In this document: one piece after another, positions 25,010 through 31,105 of the stretch
How positions within the stretch are numbered: position 1 is the first letter of the stretch
Layout of the letters: each line of letters begins with the position of its first letter
DNA from: Candidatus Saccharimonadales bacterium
Lineage (GTDB): Bacteria; Patescibacteriota; Saccharimonadia; UBA4664; DATIHN01
NCBI GenBank assembly: GCA_035480635.1
Contig: DATIHN010000016.1
Location: forward strand, 562-64,561
Direction: 5' to 3'
DNA length: 64,000 nucleotides
Program-made: the position numbers and the translations under genes
Notes under the pieces: model-generated
Databases searched by the model: none
Told to the model about the DNA's origin: nothing
The model's input: only the letters and a program-made list of their open reading frames with translations

Positions 25010-25288
25010 GTGAAGCACCGAAAAGGATCATCAAAAATCAAGTACGATCACCATATGATCTCGGGCCTTCGCGACTTTCTCGAAAGCATCGAAGACTGGC
25101 CGGAGATCAAATCGATCATCCCTGGTCGCATCAAACGCACCGGCATACATACAGCCCTGAAGCTCAAGGTCCAATACCCCACCGACACCGGTTTGAAGTG
25201 CCAGGCTCAGTCTGGGGGAGCAATCCAGGAGGTCTTCGTTGTCACATCCGTACCAGACGTGCTTGCTCGTAAGCTCAACAACCTATAG
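25010..25288 (+). CDS. Small hypothetical protein (92 aa), partner of the NYN gene.
   Basis: AGGAGA RBS and GTG start. The stop lies 12 nt before the NYN ORF. Confidence 0.45.
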   Translation: MKHRKGSSKIKYDHHMISGLRDFLESIEDWPEIKSIIPGRIKRTGIHTALKLKVQYPTDTGLKCQAQSGGAIQEVFVVTSVPDVLARKLNNL

Positions 25289-25300
25289 GGGTGAAGCAAC

Positions 25301-25828
25301 GTGGAGATGCCGAAGTTCGCATTAGTTGCCATCGATGGCGATAACATCGACCGCACGCTCTTTGGGGAGCTCAAGAGTCAACTTGCCCCAGGGGTCTTGG
25401 TGGAAGTGATAGCCGAACTGCTCCCCAATCACACCACCTGGAGCCTGGGCTGCTACACGGTTCCGCAAACCGACCGAGCTATGTCTCTCCAGCAGCATTA
25501 TCTGCGCGAGTTGGTGGCAGCCGGTATCGCTATTCGGCGATGGCGGCGGGGAGCCATTCGCGGCCGTACCGTCGGCTACCCCGACAGCTGGCTGGTGGAG
25601 CAGGTGGTGACCATTTGGGATCGATTCGACACGCTGGTATTAGTGACGGCCGACCGGGACTACGTCCCCTTGTTATCTAATGCCCAAGCCATGGGCAAAG
25701 ACACCGTCGTGCTTTCACCTCAACCGGTGGCTTGGCCCAGCTTCGTGCGAGTACATGAACTCGACTGGCTCGACACTCAACACCCAGGTCTTCTACGCTC
25801 ACTTATTGCCGCCCCGGCCTGGATATAA
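25301..25828 (+). CDS. NYN-domain (LabA-like, PIN-related) RNase.
   Basis: ALVAIDGDNIDR and LVLVTADRDYVPLL...GKDTVVL match the NYN acidic motifs. Confidence 0.7.
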   Translation: MEMPKFALVAIDGDNIDRTLFGELKSQLAPGVLVEVIAELLPNHTTWSLGCYTVPQTDRAMSLQQHYLRELVAAGIAIRRWRRGAIRGRTVGYPDSWLVEQVVTIWDRFDTLVLVTADRDYVPLLSNAQAMGKDTVVLSPQPVAWPSFVRVHELDWLDTQHPGLLRSLIAAPAWI

Positions 25829-25829
25829 G

Positions 25830-25870
25830 CCCCCTAGAGTCTATTTGGATTCTAGGGGGTTAACATTTTG
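25830..25870 (+). terminator. Rho-independent terminator.
   Basis: CCCCCTAGA ... TCTAGGGGG 9-bp stem followed by TTAACATTTTG. Confidence 0.6.
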
Positions 25871-25879
25871 ATAAAAGCA

Positions 25880-25908
25880 TTGACGTAGTTCAAAAAAAAT
25901 ACTAGAAT
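25880..25908 (+). promoter_or_regulatory. Strong sigma70 promoter: TTGACG, 17 nt spacer, TAGAAT.
   Basis: Near-consensus hexamers with 17-nt spacing, about 70 nt before the GAGGAGGG RBS and ATG 25980. Confidence 0.6.
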
Positions 25909-25979: not shown

Positions 25980-26726
25980 ATGGCAGGTACAGCAAACTCC
26001 ACCGACCAACCGACGTGGGTAACCATCGACATCGTATGTGTCGGTGACGAGCCCATGCTCTGTAACCCGATGAGTCGCGACCAGCTCGTGGCCATCGCCG
26101 AGAAGCGTCCAGTTGCCTGGCCCGCTGACCGTCCTGTGATCGAGCAGGCCGACGTTAAGGCCGAGCTGATGAGGGACACCGACGGCCACTACGGCTTCCC
26201 GCGGCAGTGGCTGCAGGGGGCCTTGAGGGAAGCTGGTCGCTCAGTACCCACCGGTAAGGCTGCTCGGCAGATGATCAGCACCGCTACCAGCACGCGCTTG
26301 CGCACCCTGGTGCGGATCGATCCAGTCTGCCTGAGCTTCAACGCCGACGGTGAGCGGTTCATCCGCTTCAGCAGTCACTCCGAGTACGAACGCGATGTCC
26401 GCAAGGGCGTCGGGGGTAACGCTGCCAAGCCGGTGGCGGTAGCGATCGTGCGGCCGCTCTTCCGTAACTGGGCCTTCCGCGTCCGCATCCAGGCATCCAC
26501 CAGCATCGACACCTCGCGCATTCGTGAGCTATTCGAGATCGCTGGTGCCAGCCAGGGTTTGGGCGACTTCCGCCCCGGCAAGGGTGGCGAGTTCGGCTGC
26601 TTCCAAGTGGCCTCGTTGGTCAAATACGACGATCCAGCCGAGGTACCGGAGTTCGTACTGGCCACCAACGCCATGACGGCGGCGGACAACGGCCAGGGCA
26701 AGGTTCACGAACTCGCCAGCACTTAG
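25980..26726 (+). CDS. Hypothetical protein (248 aa) with a glycine-rich loop GLGDFRPGKGGEFG.
   Basis: Monocistronic unit with its own promoter and terminator. The G-rich loop is loosely reminiscent of RAMP/Cas6 loops; this is unverified. Confidence 0.6.
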   Translation: MAGTANSTDQPTWVTIDIVCVGDEPMLCNPMSRDQLVAIAEKRPVAWPADRPVIEQADVKAELMRDTDGHYGFPRQWLQGALREAGRSVPTGKAARQMISTATSTRLRTLVRIDPVCLSFNADGERFIRFSSHSEYERDVRKGVGGNAAKPVAVAIVRPLFRNWAFRVRIQASTSIDTSRIRELFEIAGASQGLGDFRPGKGGEFGCFQVASLVKYDDPAEVPEFVLATNAMTAADNGQGKVHELAST

Positions 26727-26743
26727 CCGGCCAACCGACTTGT

Positions 26744-26779
26744 GGGCCGAGGCTTCGTGCCTCGGCCCACTTTCTTTTG
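26744..26779 (+). terminator. Rho-independent terminator.
   Basis: GGGCCGAGGC TTCGT GCCTCGGCCC followed by ACTTTCTTTTG. Confidence 0.65.
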
Positions 26780-26856
26780 CCCTCATACATGTGGCAAAAG
26801 ACAAATTTTGGTCTGCTGAGCCATCTCGTTGTGCATCTTAAGTTCCATTAATTCTG

Positions 26857-27761
26857 GAGGGAGAACTCAAGTTCTCGCAAATAGTCTGGTCGAGTACAGT
26901 GGGGTCGTGTAGGTAAAGGCTTGCAGAACTACGGTACCGGGTAGGGACTGATGTTCCTACCATACCTAATGTTGGGCTAGGCTTGGTTCCGCTGGGTTGG
27001 TCAGCGTTTAGTGTGGTTATCTACCGGGCAGCAGCCGTCATGCTACTGCCAAACCTGCCCTACGGTGTGGTCCGGCCTGCTTCGTTGTGATGCCACCCAG
27101 TTAGGCATGGGGTAGCGGTCGCCAGACCGCTACTATAACTCCGGTAGGGTCCGCCATTGCAGTGTCGCCCACGCAGTTGTATGGCCCGCATGACTAGGGT
27201 TTGGTGGACTTTGGGGCGGCAGCCGACAGGTTGCCGCCATTACCTTATGTAAGGTTTACTGGGTTAGGGTTCGGCTCCATAGGCCTAGCTATTCTGCTGC
27301 TCGGGGCGGGAGAACCAAGATTCTCCCGCCAACCCTATTGTTTGGTACTGCCAGCTCACGTAAAGCATAGCTGCGTAGTCTAAGGCAAGGGGCAGCAGCT
27401 CCGGCTGCTGCCATCAGTCACGGTGACGTTCCGTGGATTAGGCTTTTGCCAGCCATGGCGTTGTCATGCTTGGTACGGGGTGGGAACCACAAAGCTCCCA
27501 CCATGGTTAGTCCACTGTGTGGTTGAGCCTGGTTTGTCGTCGTCGAGCTTGGCACACTTAGGGGCGAGACCGCTTGAACGGTCTCGCTGACACTTGTGGT
27601 AAGGTTGAGATCCCTACAGTAGAGTGCTATCGGCTTAGCTACGGGGTAGTGGCTCCGGCCGCTGCCGACATTGTGGTCGACTAGCGTAGAGTTGATTACT
27701 CTGTTGTGTGTCTCGTTTGAGTTTCCTAAGGGGTGGGGAGGGACTAAAATCCTTCCCCACC
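26857..27761 (+). repeat. Array 1: 11 tandem units of about 85 bp, each starting with a GGGG-initiated GC-rich stem-loop. Sequences diverge but structure is conserved.
   Basis: Hairpin starts at 26857, 26939, 27026, 27109, 27214, 27303, 27389, 27477, 27561, 27643 and 27730, with 82-105 bp spacing. Stems co-vary, with plus-strand G-U wobbles and one C-A mismatch in unit 3. There is no ORF. Confidence 0.7.
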
Positions 27762-27870
27762 AACAACTTTCATCGTTCTTATGGTGCTATCGTTTCACAT
27801 ACGATGCCACCTCGGCCTGATGACAGTCCGGACACCTTGACACTCGAATAGATAGAAAGGAGGGAACCGC

Positions 27871-29694
27871 ATGAGCGATTACAGTGACGCCTTGTCGCAA
27901 GAGAACCTCATGACCTGCTTCCCCCGTCAGTACCGTCGCCCCAACAACTCTCAACTGTCTGCCTTTGCCGCCATCGCCGAACACGGTAGTGAAACACTCG
28001 AGGCACCGACTGGCACCGGCAAGACCGCCGTTGGCTGGTCCTACCTCGAGGCCTTGGAACGAGCTGGCGCTACCTCACTAGTGGCTATTGCTCCCAACAA
28101 GACTCACGTAAACCAGTGGAAAGAGCTCCACCCCGATATGACGGTCGCCTATGGCCGCAGTGAGTACGACTGCCTTTACTACGACGAGGAGGACGAACCC
28201 TTTAAGGCCGACGAGATTCCTTGTTTGACCTTAACCAATTGTCCCCACCGCGTTGACGTAGAGACTGGCCAGACCGTGGAAGAGGGCGCTATGCCATGCC
28301 CCTACTACCAGGCCAAGTTCGAGGCCAGACGCTCGCGCAAACTGGTTTGCACCATGAGCTTCTACCTCTTCAATAACGTCTTTCGTGGGGACTTTGAGCC
28401 CCCCGATGGGCTGGTGATTGACGAGGCCGACCAGATTGCCAAAGTCGTTCGCGGCGCGCTCAGCTACGAAATCACCGACTTCCAACTGCGGCGCAGTGTG
28501 ATGTTGCTGGAGAGCATCGGGGCCGACGACGAGGCCAAATCGGTCAAGCAATTCCTGCGCAATATGGTCGCTATCCTGAAGCGCAAGCCCCAGGGGCAGC
28601 CAACCTTGCTAACGGACGGCGAGATTGTTCGCCTGCTGGATGCGATTGGTCAAATTGACGCCGAGGCTGTTCGGAAGCGTATTGCACGTGCCATCAAGAC
28701 TGGCGAAATCGATCCTTACGAGGACCGAGAGGTGCTAACCAGGCTAGAGCGGCTGACCCAAAACCTGGGGCGCTATTTGCGCTCTCTGGGGTATGCTCTG
28801 CCGACCGGTGAATACCACGCCCTCAACTTGGTGACCTACGCCTACAGCGACAACGAGGTAACCGACGAGAACCGGGTCAACTATAAGCTCATCATCAAGA
28901 GCTACCACGTAGCCGGTCTAGTGCGCAAGCTGCTCAGCCCAAACACCCTGGCCATGTCGGCGACCATTGGCGACAACACCGTCTTTGGCTACGAAACCGG
29001 CATTCAACTGCCATTCGTGAGCCTGCCGGGTACGTTCCCAGCAGAAAACGCCCTGGTACTGCTGCCTACAGATACGCCCAACTTGGCTCAGAAGGAGCGC
29101 AGCCGTAACCAACCCACCAGAGTGCTACGCCACATTGCCAGAGCCTGTGGCGACTTTGCCAAAAAGGATATCCGCAGCCTAGTGATTGTGGTTAGTAACC
29201 GCGAACGCGACAAGTTCCTTTGGCTCTGCCAAGAAGCTGAGGAAGATGTCGACGTAGTCAGCTACGGCGATGGCCTGACCCCCCGTCAGGCTCTGGCGGC
29301 CTTCAGGGAAGGTCAAGGGACGGTGCTCTTGGGCACGGTGGCCAACTACGGCTCGGGCGTTGACTTGCCAGAGGAGATTGCTCCAGTCACGTTTGTGCTA
29401 CGACCGGGCTACCCCAACCCCAACGACCCGTTCGCTCAGTTCGAGCGGCGACGCTTTGGCAACGGCTCTTACTGGAAGGTCTGGAACTGGCGAGTGATGA
29501 TTGAAGCTCTGCAGGTGCGCGGGCGCAATATCCGCAGTGCCAGTGATCGTGGTGCCACCATCTTCATCTCGCAACAGTTCCGGCGTTTCCTGTTTGCATC
29601 ACTGCCGGAATGGCTCAAGGACAGTTACGACGGCAGCCTGACATTCGAGGAGGCCTGCGGGCGCGTTCTCGAGCTGATGGAAGCTCAGTCGTAA
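27871..29694 (+). CDS. Rad3/XPD/DinG-family SF2 helicase with an Fe-S cluster domain (607 aa).
   Basis: APTGTGKT Walker A, a four-Cys cluster, VIDEAD box, SAT motif, and QVRGRNIRSASDRG motif VI. AAAGGAGGG RBS upstream. Confidence 0.8.
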   Translation: MSDYSDALSQENLMTCFPRQYRRPNNSQLSAFAAIAEHGSETLEAPTGTGKTAVGWSYLEALERAGATSLVAIAPNKTHVNQWKELHPDMTVAYGRSEYDCLYYDEEDEPFKADEIPCLTLTNCPHRVDVETGQTVEEGAMPCPYYQAKFEARRSRKLVCTMSFYLFNNVFRGDFEPPDGLVIDEADQIAKVVRGALSYEITDFQLRRSVMLLESIGADDEAKSVKQFLRNMVAILKRKPQGQPTLLTDGEIVRLLDAIGQIDAEAVRKRIARAIKTGEIDPYEDREVLTRLERLTQNLGRYLRSLGYALPTGEYHALNLVTYAYSDNEVTDENRVNYKLIIKSYHVAGLVRKLLSPNTLAMSATIGDNTVFGYETGIQLPFVSLPGTFPAENALVLLPTDTPNLAQKERSRNQPTRVLRHIARACGDFAKKDIRSLVIVVSNRERDKFLWLCQEAEEDVDVVSYGDGLTPRQALAAFREGQGTVLLGTVANYGSGVDLPEEIAPVTFVLRPGYPNPNDPFAQFERRRFGNGSYWKVWNWRVMIEALQVRGRNIRSASDRGATIFISQQFRRFLFASLPEWLKDSYDGSLTFEEACGRVLELMEAQS

Positions 29695-29757
29695 GGAACA
29701 CATTTACGGTAGAGCCAGGCTAGATACGTTAGTGCAGCGCGAAGCAGGCTAAGTTGT

Positions 29758-30790
29758 CGGTGGAGAGGCCGAGCTATGGGCCTCTCCACAAACTATCTGG
29801 TTCGGTAACGCGGGCTCAACTTTTGTGCCGTCATCTACTGATTGGTGCGGGGCAGCGACTTTGGTCGCTGCCAATCATTAGCTTCGGCTAGGTCAGGCTT
29901 TGCGCGCTGCTATAGGGCGGAGTTTGGTCCTGGTGGGGAGGCGAAACAGTTGGCCTCTCCACAAAACTTTCGTTAAGGTGTGGTATGGTTTGCCAGTTTT
30001 CGGTCTGCCACATCTTGGGTGGAGAAGCCAAACAGCTTCTCCATGAAAATCAGTGGTAGGGTAGCACGAGCCGTTGGACTCAGCCTTATTCTTGGGTATC
30101 GGGTGGAGTACCCAACTCCACCAAAAATTTGCTTAGCTATGCTAAGGTTATCCCCGGTGGCCTACGGTCTGGGACGGAGGCATTAGTGTCTTCGTCAAAC
30201 CTTAGGTATGGTGACCCCCTCTCCGTTGACGTATGCCAAGGCCACGTAGCTTGCGTTTCTGTTGAGCAGCGAATTGGGCGGAAGCAGAAATGCTTCCGCC
30301 ACTATTTCCGTCAGCTCGGGTTGGCTATGATGTCGTTGCGTTGATCTGGGAACGGTCTACTAGACTACGGGGCGGGGTTGTGTAACCCCGTTAAAAATTA
30401 CGGTCTGTTCAGGCTAGGCGAGCCATGCTGACTTTAGACACGGCCGGCTTCGGGGTGGGAGTGACGATGCTTCCACCAGAAATATCGTCAAGTCGAGAGA
30501 TGCACAGTGCTGTTGTTTTGCGTGAAGTACGGCTCGATAGGGTAAAGGGTGGCCGAGCAATCGGCCACTATGACTTGGGTTCGCTACTCTGTAGTAATGT
30601 CGCTTTCAGCATCGCATAGTATTGGGTGGCTGGCTTGCTAGCCACCAGCCCTACGCTAGGATTCAGTCCGGCTTTGTGGGCCTCGGTAGCTCACGGCATT
30701 CCACAGCCCGCTCGAGTCCGTTGCATTGTTCAATGGTTCAGTTGGGTAAGCGGCGGGGAGGCAGTTAAACTGCTTCCCCGCCTTTTCAAT
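29758..30790 (+). repeat. Array 2: about 11 tandem units of the same GGGG-hairpin family. The last hairpin doubles as a terminator.
   Basis: Hairpins at 29761, 29851, 29933, 30020, 30102, 30277, 30373, 30452, 30547, 30624 and 30752. G-U wobbles are plus-strand only. Hairpin K is followed by TTTTC. Confidence 0.65.
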
Positions 30791-30870
30791 TAATAAGCCA
30801 ATTTCGTTATTGGTCTGGGACTTTTCGATAACTTTAAGTTAAGATATAATTTAAGCCGTTTTGCAAGCAA

Positions 30871-30944
30871 GGCACCATGGCGGAGTGGTTACGCAGAGGT
30901 CTGCAAAACCTTTTACACCGGTTCGATTCCGGTTGGTGCCTCCA
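30871..30944 (+). tRNA. tRNA-Cys (GCA).
   Basis: Cloverleaf with anticodon loop CTGCAAA, T-loop GGTTCGATTCC, and an encoded CCA. Confidence 0.85.
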
Positions 30945-31076
30945 GGAATTTGGTACAGACATTTGTCTGTGCTGGATTCCTACGAAGCCGGAAGCGAAAG
31001 CGTAGGTTCGGTGGACGTAGGCGCGCAGGCAAGGGACAATAAATTGGTTCTTGCCGAGCACCGAGGGAGGTGGCTG

Positions 31077-31095
31077 CCAAGCCACATTCCGGTTG
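31077..31095 (+). repeat. 19-nt duplicate of the tRNA-Cys 3' end (ATTCCGGTTGGTGCCTCCA).
   Basis: Exact copy of 30926..30944, 133 bp downstream. It resembles an att-site footprint. Confidence 0.7.
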
Positions 31096-31105
31096 GTGCC
31101 TCCAA

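What the first reader, a model, noticed from the sequence alone, without database searches (positions are those of the whole stretch)
27871..29694. Stand-alone compact Rad3/XPD/DinG helicase with an Fe-S cluster embedded between the arrays
At 607 aa it is shorter than bacterial DinG (about 700 aa or more) and close in size to archaeal XPD and type IV Csf4. It has APTGTGKT, four Cys between Walker A and the VIDEAD box, and an intact motif VI. The host carries the canonical uvrABC repair genes nearby, so this helicase is probably accessory. A helicase paired with a NYN nuclease is a recurring defence-system architecture (established generically); the specific combination with hairpin arrays is not one I can place.
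Basis: partly seen in the sequence, partly recalled or inferred. Interest (0 to 1): 0.6.

Follow-up and report, generated by a model that had tools for sequence, protein, structure and literature searches.

The report
Helicase partner of a VIPR system
The helicase is real, but it is not stand-alone: it is the accessory enzyme of a VIPR system, a CRISPR-like RNA-guided DNA-recognition system first reported in 2026, and the flanking "hairpin arrays" are 22 guide-RNA genes.

Summary
The ORF 27871-29694 (+) is an intact 607-aa XPD/DinG-fold helicase. It has Walker A, a DEAD box, motif VI and four invariant cysteines. It is neither housekeeping nor stand-alone. In 72 of 79 related Patescibacteria loci it sits beside a ~225-aa gene, which here is 25980-26726. 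That gene family matches the solved SUSP1 Vipr protein (profile E 1.4e-13). Its model has a Cas7-type RAMP fold. The two flanking arrays hold 22 units on the helicase strand. Each unit has an A-rich 5-nt leader, then 10-15 pentamers (one unit has 20) of type YNNGG in strict register, then a covarying hairpin. [quoted passage not shown] That preprint also reports helicase accessory genes and hammerhead-interspersed arrays. I found 27 hammerheads in relatives, all on the helicase strand. The NYN gene is not a conserved partner. No vrRNA target was found. What the helicase does after target binding is inferred by analogy with type IV-A CasDinG. Verdict: a new member of a very recently described kind.

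The parts
25880..25908 (+). Promoter-like site upstream of vipr (TTGACG-17-TAGAAT)
   Evidence: Consensus scan, 10 of 12 positions. Weak evidence only.
25980..26726 (+). vipr gene: 248-aa minimal RAMP (Vipr homolog) with G-rich loop GLGDFRPGKGGEFGCF
   Evidence: Homologs in 72 of 79 helicase loci. Family profile against PDB 36pp_D SUSP1 Vipr: E 1.4e-13. phrog_4652: E 1.7e-11. AF2 model with pLDDT 78.5 matches Cas7-type RAMPs, E about 2e-6.
26742..26770 (+). Terminator-like hairpin with T-run after vipr
26885..27761 (+). Upstream vrRNA array, 10 units
   Evidence: Lag-5 periodicity Z 4.9-5.8. CM R1 hits only on the + strand. Strict pentamer register.
26885..26961 (+). vrRNA 1 (5' end uncertain; tail 26940-26961)
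26962..27050 (+). vrRNA 2 (12 pentamers; tail 27027-27050)
   Evidence: Not in the CM training set.
27051..27134 (+). vrRNA 3 (11 pentamers; tail 27111-27134)
27135..27238 (+). vrRNA 4 (15 pentamers; tail 27215-27238)
27239..27330 (+). vrRNA 5 (13 pentamers; tail 27305-27330)
27331..27412 (+). vrRNA 6 (11 pentamers; tail 27391-27412)
27413..27502 (+). vrRNA 7 (13 pentamers; tail 27479-27502)
27503..27588 (+). vrRNA 8 (11 pentamers; tail 27563-27588)
27589..27666 (+). vrRNA 9 (10 pentamers; tail 27645-27666)
27667..27761 (+). vrRNA 10 (12 pentamers; tail 27732-27761). About 109 nt of helicase 5' UTR with an AGGAGG ribosome-binding site follow.
27871..29694 (+). vap gene: 607-aa XPD/DinG-fold Fe-S helicase (the finding)
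29705..30782 (+). Downstream vrRNA array, 12 units
   Evidence: Lag-5 periodicity Z 3.8-5.2. CM hits. Register.
29705..29789 (+). vrRNA 11 (11 pentamers; tail 29760-29789)
   Evidence: The tail is in alignment A4 but scored below the CM reporting threshold.
29790..29872 (+). vrRNA 12 (tail 29851-29872)
29873..29962 (+). vrRNA 13 (tail 29933-29962)
29963..30044 (+). vrRNA 14 (tail 30019-30044)
30045..30122 (+). vrRNA 15 (tail 30102-30122; pentamers more degenerate)
30123..30196 (+). vrRNA 16 (tail 30173-30196)
30197..30300 (+). vrRNA 17 (15 pentamers; tail 30277-30300)
30301..30392 (+). vrRNA 18 (tail 30371-30392). Its guide is partly shared with relative L001.
30393..30477 (+). vrRNA 19 (tail 30454-30477)
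30478..30569 (+). vrRNA 20 (tail 30548-30569)
30570..30646 (+). vrRNA 21 (tail 30625-30646)
30647..30782 (+). vrRNA 22 (20 pentamers). The tail 30752-30782 is followed by TTTTCAATT, so it probably also serves as the array terminator.

Best explanation
The segment 25880-30782 is a chromosomal VIPR (Viral Interference Programmable Repeat) system in a Saccharimonadales (Patescibacteria) genome. It consists of vipr (25980-26726), a 10-unit vrRNA array, the helicase as its accessory (vap) gene (27871-29694), and a 12-unit vrRNA array.

Shown here: the gene pair is conserved, the Vipr protein is homologous to SUSP1 Vipr and has a RAMP fold, the arrays have YNNGG pentamer tracts in strict register with covarying hairpin tails, everything lies on one strand, and relatives carry hammerhead ribozymes in their arrays.

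Taken from the VIPR preprints, which worked on other VIPR types: Vipr protomers polymerise along each vrRNA. They sequester the GGY of each pentamer and present the NN dinucleotides. These NN read double-stranded DNA with a one-nucleotide skip and form a triplex R-loop that blocks transcription.

Inferred by me: the XPD-like 5'-to-3' Fe-S helicase is recruited to the bound filament or to the displaced strand. There it unwinds or strips the target DNA, which extends or enforces interference against phages or other mobile elements. This is what CasDinG does for type IV-A CRISPR complexes. Its ATPase motifs and Fe-S cysteines are intact, so it is probably catalytically active.
For: (1) The helicase family is tied to the ~225-aa gene in 72 of 79 loci, on the same strand, separated by 0.2-2.4 kb of non-coding DNA. 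Pairwise distances of the two proteins correlate: Mantel r 0.36, p <= 0.001.
(2) The partner is Vipr. The family profile hits PDB 36pp_D 'SUSP1 Vipr protein' at E 1.4e-13 over the full length. The window protein alone hits phrog_4652 at 1.7e-11. Its AF2 model matches Csm3, type VII Cas7, Cmr4 and Cas7-11 at E 2e-6 to 1e-4, probability 1.0, and viral ~200-aa proteins at 2.9e-10.
(3) vrRNA signature. Lag-5 autocorrelation of G, GG and G-to-Y steps gives Z 3.8-5.8 in both arrays and nothing in coding controls. Stepping 5 nt at a time upstream from the 22 tails, without indels, phase 0 has 0% G and 93% pyrimidine, phases 1-2 are unbiased, and phases 3-4 have 49% and 57% G. Units carry 10-15 pentamers, and one carries 20.
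(4) Tails. There are 8 consensus base pairs, and 7 of them show compensatory changes. A covariance model finds 21 hits in the window, all on the + strand and all inside the arrays. In 78 related loci it finds 185 hits, all on the helicase strand, in about 40 loci.
(5) The same 5-nt periodicity occurs in the vipr-helicase gaps of 53 related loci: median Z 3.7, with 60% above 3, against 0% in the helicase coding sequence.
(6) There are 27 type III hammerheads in 9 related loci, all on the helicase strand and all in its flanks. In 7 loci one lies just upstream of the helicase start codon.
(7) The preprints describe exactly these elements: vipr plus vap, long flanking intergenic regions, ~100-nt vrRNAs with 9-16 YNNGG repeats and a structured tail, hammerhead-interspersed arrays, and helicase or nuclease vaps.
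(8) The helicase is intact and XPD/DinG-like and matches the type IV-A DinG profile at E 2.4e-39.
Against: The window Vipr on its own is too diverged for a direct hit to the solved SUSP1 Vipr (phmmer E 0.53), so that link needs the family profile or the PHROG model. No natural target was found. There is no self-match in the window. Seven exact-pattern scans of viral and metagenome collections returned nothing. Ten hits from 16-base seeds did not extend beyond chance. There are no expression data for this locus. The window has no hammerhead or any other Rfam match in the arrays, so vrRNA processing here is unknown. I could not assign one of the preprint's seven types, because its supplementary tables are not held. 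The helicase shows no sequence hit to solved CasDinG chains, so the type IV analogy rests on one PADLOC profile and on fold. The role of the helicase is entirely inferred.
Confidence: 0.85

Rival explanations
1. The helicase is the lineage's housekeeping XPD/DinG repair helicase, and the flanking hairpins are unrelated structured UTRs or terminators.
For: The fold and motifs are those of repair helicases. The neighbourhood is housekeeping: ligase, DnaE, GatAB, uvrABC and tRNAs. Homologs span many Patescibacteria classes.
Against: Only 86 pattern matches were found in 185,579 species genomes. Neighbouring genes vary between loci: purM/purH in L001 and gltX/mreB in L003. The gene is linked to vipr in 72 of 79 loci. 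NCBIfam DinG, YoaA and Rad3 scores are 19-39 bits against cutoffs of 247-789. The segment has 56-61% GC against about 50% in the flanks. The arrays carry a pentamer code, not just hairpins.
Confidence: 0.03
2. The locus is a degenerate or minimal type IV-like CRISPR-Cas system: one Cas7-like protein, a Csf4/DinG helicase and CRISPR arrays with decayed repeats.
For: All 24 family members hit the PADLOC typeIV_DinG profile, best E 8.9e-51. The partner has a Cas7-like RAMP fold. The units look like a hairpin 'repeat' plus a 55-60-nt 'spacer'.
Against: There are no identical direct repeats. The 'spacers' are themselves built of YNNGG pentamers in register, which no CRISPR spacer shows. The hairpins covary instead of being copies of one another. 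No Cas1/2, Csf1, Cas5 or Cas6 recurs among the neighbours. The partner matches Vipr by sequence.
Confidence: 0.04
3. The helicase works with the upstream NYN nuclease as a two-gene helicase-nuclease defence system. The arrays would then be decoys or substrates.
For: A NYN-domain gene lies at 25301-25828, Pfam E 1.3e-7. It is conserved together with DUF2103 in L083.
Against: NYN and DUF2103 are found in none of the other related loci. A 15-bp hairpin follows the NYN stop codon, a promoter-like site precedes vipr, and vipr lies between NYN and the helicase. Neither gene has a PADLOC hit.
Confidence: 0.05
4. The locus is a VIPR system, but the helicase acts on RNA rather than on target DNA. It would remodel the highly structured array transcript or load vrRNAs onto Vipr.
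For: The arrays are dense in stable hairpins. The helicase is embedded in the array transcript, with hammerheads directly upstream of its start codon in 7 relatives.
Against: XPD/DinG-family enzymes are ssDNA translocases (established knowledge). The closest profile is the DNA-acting CasDinG. The preprints regard vaps as DNA-interacting proteins.
Confidence: 0.08

Closest known systems
VIPR systems (Viral Interference Programmable Repeat; bioRxiv 10.64898/2026.04.26.720920 and 10.64898/2026.04.26.720927)
   Same: A two-gene core of vipr (minimal RAMP) plus vap. Long intergenic flanks encode arrays of RNAs under 100 nt, each made of 9-16 YNNGG pentamers plus a structured 3' tail. Relatives have hammerhead-interspersed arrays. 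Helicase accessory genes are mentioned for types III-V.
   Different: The experimentally studied systems (type II: SUSP1, P. fulva) are phage-encoded, have a DNA-binding vap1, about 4 vrRNAs and a pseudoknotted tail. This locus is chromosomal in a Patescibacteria genome. Its vap is an XPD-like Fe-S helicase, it has 22 vrRNAs, its tails are simple covarying hairpins, and it has no ribozymes. The helicase vaps are uncharacterised, and I could not assign the type.
Type IV-A CRISPR-Cas (Csf complex with CasDinG/Csf4)
   Same: A Cas7-like RAMP filament on a guide RNA paired with an XPD/DinG-family helicase. The helicase matches the PADLOC typeIV_DinG profile over its full length (E 2.4e-39). The expected outcome is interference without a nuclease.
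   Different: There is no CRISPR array, no adaptation genes, and no Csf1, Cas5 or Cas6. The guide is a gapped pentamer code rather than a contiguous spacer. There is no significant sequence hit to solved CasDinG chains. Those solved chains rank below XPD and DinG in the fold search (E 4e-17 to 1e-14, against 1.7e-21).
Archaeal XPD / eukaryotic XPD-FANCJ (Rad3 family)
   Same: These are the best sequence and fold matches among solved structures: profile E 6e-18 to 1e-15, Foldseek 1.7e-21, TM about 0.68. They share the size (about 600 aa), the 4-Cys Fe-S domain and the Arch domain.
   Different: It is not a repair or transcription factor ortholog. The TIGR00604 rad3 score is 19 bits against a cutoff of 247. 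Its genomic association is with vipr and vrRNA arrays.
Bacterial DinG / YoaA
   Same: The same superfamily and fold (E. coli DinG Foldseek E 1.7e-21), with Fe-S cysteines.
   Different: About 100 aa shorter. NCBIfam equivalog scores (17-39 bits) are far below the cutoffs (598-789). The distribution is sparse and accessory.

Membership tests
VIPR system | A Vipr protein: a small single-RRM RAMP with a G-rich loop, homologous to characterised Viprs | tested here: met
   Family profile against PDB 36pp_D SUSP1 Vipr: E 1.4e-13, full length. Window protein against phrog_4652: 1.7e-11. AF2 model against Cas7-type RAMPs: E 2e-6. Conserved AG...G....RP...G.FG.F loop. Caveat: the single-sequence phmmer hit to 36pp is only E 0.53.
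VIPR system | vrRNA genes: tandem YNNGG (or related) pentamers, at least 4 and typically 9-16, with conserved GGY and hypervariable NN | tested here: met
   Lag-5 periodicity Z 3.8-5.8. Anchored phase profile: Y 93% and G 0% at position 1, unbiased at positions 2-3, G 49% and 57% at positions 4-5. 10-15 pentamers per unit, and 20 in one unit.
VIPR system | A conserved, structured 3' tail after the repeat tract | tested here: met
   22 hairpins in register with the pentamers. 7 of 8 base pairs show compensatory changes. The CM finds them only on the + strand and only in the arrays, and on the helicase strand in 185 of 185 hits in relatives.
VIPR system | A minimal locus of vipr plus one accessory (vap) gene, flanked by long intergenic regions, without a CRISPR array or cas operon | tested here: met
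   vipr and helicase are the only recurrent genes across 79 loci. No exact direct repeats were found in 26700-30870, and no tandem array in the whole window.
VIPR system | vrRNAs are expressed, bind Vipr, and direct dsDNA recognition with a one-nucleotide skip. Natural targets lie in competing mobile elements. | tested here: inconclusive
   Expression and binding cannot be tested with these tools. Target searches were negative but much stricter than the preprint's threshold of at least 80% NN match.
VIPR system | Assignment to one of the seven published types | not testable with these tools
   It needs the preprint's Vipr tree and data S4, and no supplementary files are held. The text says types III-V have nuclease or helicase vaps and that hammerhead arrays occur in types I and V.
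XPD/Rad3/DinG Fe-S helicases (SF2) | Walker A, DEAD/DEAH box and motif VI are intact | tested here: met
   GTGKT 48-52, DEAD 184-187 and QxRGRNxR 548-555 are invariant in the family.
XPD/Rad3/DinG Fe-S helicases (SF2) | A four-cysteine Fe-S domain inserted in HD1, and an Arch domain | tested here: met
   C101, C118, C124 and C143 are invariant. The full-length fold matches XPD and DinG, TM 0.65-0.72. Helical Arch region at about residues 203-308. Actual cluster binding cannot be tested.
Housekeeping DinG/YoaA/XPD orthologs | Passes the equivalog model cutoff, and is widely and syntenically conserved | tested here: not met
   NCBIfam scores of 17-39 bits against cutoffs of 247-789. 86 pattern matches in 185,579 genomes, in variable contexts.
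Type IV-A CRISPR-Cas | A CRISPR array of near-identical repeats with contiguous spacers | tested here: not met
   No repeat family was detected. The inter-hairpin sequence is a pentamer code.
Type IV-A CRISPR-Cas | A multisubunit Csf effector (Csf1, Csf2/Cas7, Csf3/Cas5, Csf5/Cas6) | tested here: not met
   Only one RAMP gene recurs among the neighbours. The Vipr family has no PADLOC cas hit.
Type IV-A CRISPR-Cas | A Csf4/CasDinG helicase | tested here: inconclusive
   The PADLOC typeIV_DinG profile PDLC01439 is hit by 24 of 24 members, best E 8.9e-51. There is no sequence hit to solved CasDinG chains, and in the fold search they rank below XPD and DinG. No phylogeny was made.

The most novel reading that the evidence does not exclude
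The XPD-like Vap helicase is the functional, and possibly evolutionary, counterpart of CasDinG. Vipr-plus-helicase modules like this one would then be the pre-CRISPR precursor of type IV-A systems. In them, a RAMP filament on a gapped-code guide opens a triplex R-loop, and the Fe-S helicase loads on the displaced strand and translocates 5' to 3' to enforce interference. A side reading is also open: in lineages without hammerheads, such as this one, a host or neighbouring nuclease (for example the NYN protein) may have taken over vrRNA processing.
Probability: 0.3. Interest if true: 0.8.

Novelty: new member of a known kind. Interest (0 to 1): 0.5.

Why it matters
VIPR is a newly reported class of RNA-guided DNA recognition, proposed to predate CRISPR. 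Only its DNA-binding (type II) form has been studied experimentally. This locus is a clean, large example of the uncharacterised helicase-bearing form, sitting in a chromosome of an ultra-small Patescibacteria bacterium. It has 22 guides in perfect pentamer register and an intact Fe-S helicase. It gives concrete coordinates for testing what a helicase adds to a VIPR filament. It also bears on whether the type IV-A CRISPR pairing of a Cas7 filament with DinG has a VIPR-era origin. For genome annotation, it shows that helicases annotated as 'Rad3-related helicase' with kilobase-long 'empty' flanks in candidate-phyla-radiation (CPR) genomes are parts of guide-RNA systems.

Tried and rejected
(1) Rfam. 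At gathering thresholds the window shows only tRNAs, and a relaxed scan of the arrays finds nothing meaningful. A regex-and-stem scan finds no hammerhead in the window.

(2) CRISPR or tandem-repeat explanation. The repeat finder and TRF find no repeat family.

(3) Array conservation. The arrays do not align by BLASTN with L001 or L083, although the gene is 69-73% identical at the nucleotide level. The exceptions are the last ~120 nt before the ATG and one 38-nt guide segment.

(4) Same-strain variation. Four other contigs encoding the identical protein are 100% identical in DNA, so they say nothing about array turnover.

(5) Pfam and PADLOC on the partner family gave nothing, and NCBIfam gave nothing for the window's partner protein. 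Word-based homolog searches found only 4 and 27 relatives.

(6) Target hunting. There are no self-targets under skip rules of 0-3 nt. Five exact viral scans and two exact metagenome scans returned 0 hits. Two 16-base seed scans gave 10 viral hits that failed on extension, the best being 23 of 30.

(7) Viral origin. No relative of the helicase was found in the IMG/VR contigs or in the INPHARED phages. Only distant Vipr matches appeared, in FelixO1-like and Pseudomonas phages.

(8) The afdb50 fold library was unavailable, so I could not link directly to the preprint's seed UniProt entries.

(9) My first dynamic-programming pentamer segmentation allowed indels and was partly circular. I replaced it with the anchored, indel-free phase test.

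(10) The literature searches on hammerheads and CPR found nothing relevant. The link came from the PDB sequence hit.
Full report
**Observation.** The ORF 27871-29694 (+) exists and encodes 607 aa. It carries APTGTGKT (residues 45-52), VIDEAD (182-187) and QVRGRNIR (548-555). In an alignment of 24 homologs, C101, C118, C124 and C143 are invariant, and all lie between Walker A and the DEAD box. Pfam gives Helicase_C_2 (6e-14) with weaker DEAD and DEAD_2 hits. A family profile hits FANCJ and XPD chains in the PDB at E 6e-18 to 1e-15, and E. coli DinG at 2e-10. The AlphaFold2 model (pLDDT 83, pTM 0.83) superposes over its full length on T. acidophilum XPD and E. coli DinG (Foldseek E 1.7e-21, TM 0.65-0.72). 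It matches CasDinG at E 4e-17 to 1e-14. uvrA, uvrB and uvrC are in the window as stated.

**The flanks.** Both sides of the gene are ORF-free for about 1.1 kb and are dense in GC-rich hairpins spaced about 86 nt apart. All begin with GG(G)GYGG and end with CCRCC followed by an A-rich stretch. There are 8 and 13 hairpins with stems of at least 8 bp, against about 2 in dinucleotide shuffles. That is 9.6 per kb against 1.1 per kb elsewhere in the window. The stems differ in sequence. In an alignment of 20 of them, 7 of 8 consensus pairs show compensatory changes. I selected these as hairpins, so this count leans towards structure. A covariance model built from them finds 21 hits in the 64-kb window. 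All are on the + strand and inside the two arrays, and two of them were not in the training set.

**Relatives.** The exact protein is annotated in a Candidatus Saccharimonadales MAG. More than 120 homologs of about 600 aa, at 48-79% identity, come from Patescibacteria. A scan of one genome for each of 185,579 species found only 86 pattern matches, giving 75 loci spread over many Patescibacteria classes. So the family is sparse, not universal. Neighbouring genes differ between loci. Most loci nevertheless have ORF-free gaps of 0.4-3.6 kb around the helicase. Clustering all ORFs from the loci showed one recurrent neighbour. The 248-aa ORF at window 25980-26726 has homologs in 72 of 79 loci. They are nearly always on the helicase strand, usually upstream, and separated from it by 0.2-2.4 kb. 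Pairwise distances of the two proteins correlate (Mantel r 0.36, p <= 0.001). The window-derived tail model hits 185 sites in 78 related loci, all on the helicase strand, in about 40 loci. Rfam and my own stem-checked scan found 27 type III hammerhead ribozymes in 9 loci. All are on the helicase strand and in its flanks. In 7 loci one lies immediately upstream of the helicase start codon. Hence the arrays are RNA and are transcribed in the helicase direction. In those lineages they are self-cleaved.

**Identity of the partner.** Pfam and PADLOC were silent on the partner family, and NCBIfam was silent on the window protein. A profile of 50 family members hits PDB 36pp_D, 'SUSP1 Vipr protein', at E 1.4e-13 across the whole protein. 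The window protein alone hits phrog_4652 at 1.7e-11. Its AF2 model (pLDDT 78.5) matches Cas7-type RAMPs (Csm3, type VII Cas7, Cmr4, Cas7-11) at E 2e-6 to 1e-4, and viral ~200-aa proteins at 2.9e-10. The conserved C-terminal motif AG...G....RP...G.FG.F is a RAMP-type glycine-rich loop.

Two 2026 preprints from the Doudna laboratory describe VIPR systems (10.64898/2026.04.26.720920 and 10.64898/2026.04.26.720927). These consist of a vipr gene (a minimal RAMP proposed to be ancestral), a vap accessory gene, and vrRNAs encoded in long flanking intergenic regions. A vrRNA is about 100 nt, with 9-16 YNNGG pentamers followed by a structured 3' tail. The NN dinucleotides read double-stranded DNA with a one-nucleotide skip, through a Vipr filament and a triplex R-loop. 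The preprints define seven types. Types III-V have nuclease or helicase vaps, and types I and V include hammerhead-interspersed arrays.

**Testing the VIPR definition in the window.** Both arrays show 5-nt periodicity of G, GG and G-to-Y steps (Z 3.8-5.8). Coding controls show none. I then anchored on the first stem base of each of the 22 tails and stepped upstream in strict 5-nt frames for 55 nt, with no indels. Position 1 of the pentamer is 93% pyrimidine and 0% G. Positions 2-3 are unbiased. Positions 4-5 are 49% and 57% G. Each unit therefore reads as an A-rich 5-nt leader, then 10-15 pentamers (20 in one unit) of type YNNGG, then a hairpin tail. There are 22 putative vrRNAs, 10 upstream and 12 downstream of the helicase. 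The same periodicity holds in the vipr-helicase gaps of 53 related loci: median Z 3.7, with 60% above 3, against 0% in the helicase coding sequence. The defining sequence features of a VIPR system are met. Expression, RNP formation and targeting could not be tested.

**Helicase classification.** NCBIfam equivalog models for DinG, YoaA and Rad3 score 17-39 bits against cutoffs of 247-789, so this is not a housekeeping ortholog. The strongest profile match anywhere is PADLOC typeIV_DinG (PDLC01439, 'CAS-IV-A; associated'). The window protein hits it at E 2.4e-39 over the full length. All 24 family members hit it, best E 8.9e-51. phrog_2488, a 'DNA helicase' family, is also matched over the full length (1.5e-30). 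Solved CasDinG chains give no sequence hit. The relation to Csf4 is therefore suggestive and unresolved.

**Context.** The surrounding genes are housekeeping: DNA ligase, M48 peptidase, LemA, MscL, a tRNA cluster, DnaE, GatA/B and uvrABC. The segment from 26 to 30 kb has 56-61% GC against about 50% around it, which suggests acquisition. No relative of the helicase was found in the IMG/VR contigs or in INPHARED phages. NYN (25301-25828) and DUF2103 (25010-25288) recur only in L083 and in none of the other loci. A 15-bp hairpin follows the NYN stop codon, and a promoter-like site precedes vipr. NYN is therefore a neighbour and not a core component.

**Targets.** NN strings under skip rules of 0-3 nt match nothing in the window beyond shuffled controls. 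Seven exact-pattern scans of viral and metagenome collections returned nothing. Ten viral hits from two 16-base seeds failed on extension, the best reaching 23 of 30. The preprint accepted matches of at least 80% NN with a profile search, so my negative result is weak.

**Mechanism.**
- Shown here: the module architecture, Vipr homology, the vrRNA code and tails, strandedness, and ribozyme processing in relatives.
- Taken from the preprints, for other types: filament assembly on the pentamers, gapped reading of dsDNA, and transcriptional silencing.
- Inferred: the intact XPD-like 5'-to-3' Fe-S helicase is recruited to the target-bound filament or the displaced strand. There it unwinds or clears the target, as CasDinG does for type IV-A complexes.
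- Rivals: a housekeeping helicase, a degenerate type IV CRISPR system, a NYN-helicase pair, and an RNA-remodelling role for the helicase. All are less well supported; see the rival explanations.

**Novelty.** The kind of system was published as preprints in April-June 2026, including the existence of helicase vaps and hammerhead arrays. This locus is therefore a new member of a known kind. What the present analysis adds:
- the helicase vap is an XPD-fold Fe-S enzyme, best matched by a type IV-A DinG profile;
- the Patescibacteria module is conserved as vipr, array, helicase, array, on one strand;
- the pentamers are in perfect register with simple covarying hairpin tails;
- this locus has no ribozymes.

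The role of the helicase and the targets remain open.

Noticed in passing
window 30926-30944 and 31086-31104; hairpin 30944-30981: The last 19 nt of tRNA-Cys (ATTCCGGTTGGTGCCTCCA) are repeated exactly 160 nt downstream. There are 2 matches against 0.05 expected. A 17-bp hairpin directly follows the tRNA. This may be a remnant attachment site of an integrated or excised element next to the GC-rich VIPR segment.
   Followed up: partly
window 25010-25828 (+), hairpin 25828-25861: DUF2103 (metal-binding, E 8e-15) and a NYN-domain gene form a small unit ending in a 15-bp hairpin. The pair is shared with the relative L083 and with no other VIPR-helicase locus. Whether NYN processes the ribozyme-less arrays is open.
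   Followed up: partly
L020 2300-3900 and 5600-6800: In this Parcubacteria locus the repeat unit is about 290 nt. It contains a hammerhead plus three further conserved hairpins: GGTCGG..CCGAC, CTTAAGT..ACTTAAGG and CAGTGCTTTCGAAAGAGAGTGCTG. This could be a more elaborate vrRNA tail, or two vrRNAs per ribozyme unit. The short YTTAG..CTAAGG motif after some window tails may be related.
   Followed up: no
L024 3018-3070, L020 3774-3826, L050 3919-3969, L036 117-167, L037 3830-3882, L041 3894-3942, L072 3870-3953: A hammerhead ribozyme sits within about 10-35 nt upstream of the helicase start codon in seven loci. This implies that the helicase mRNA is cut out of the upstream array transcript.
   Followed up: partly
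window 30306-30343 vs L001 3192-3228: One vrRNA guide segment is 87% identical between the window and its 79%-identical relative. The rest of the arrays cannot be aligned. This may be a retained guide against a shared target.
   Followed up: partly
L014, L019, L025, L029, L031, L039, L048, L065, L067, L074; also L018 and L075: Several loci carry two vipr paralogs, tandem or on both sides of the helicase. One MAG (JAMCZT01) carries two separate vipr-helicase loci.
   Followed up: no
L006, L011, L014, L016, L027, L044, L046, L061, L076: Some loci come from MAGs labelled Gammaproteobacteria, Bdellovibrionales, Woesearchaeota or Aenigmatarchaeota. This could be mis-binning of Patescibacteria contigs or real transfer, and I did not resolve it.
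   Followed up: no
PADLOC model PDLC01439 (typeIV_DinG): All 24 helicase family members hit this 'CAS-IV-A; associated' profile strongly (up to E 8.9e-51), yet solved CasDinG sequences do not match the family. The profile may already contain VIPR-type helicases, in which case it would mislabel such loci as type IV CRISPR.
   Followed up: partly
window 26000-30000: GC content is 0.56-0.61 across the VIPR segment, against about 0.50 in the flanking housekeeping genes. This is consistent with horizontal acquisition.
   Followed up: no
L003 1-9506: In this 59%-identical relative the vipr-helicase module begins at base 1 of a 649,518-bp contig. Contigs carrying the window's own protein also tend to break at the array ends (L079-L082). 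The arrays or the adjacent tRNA region seem to hinder assembly.
   Followed up: no
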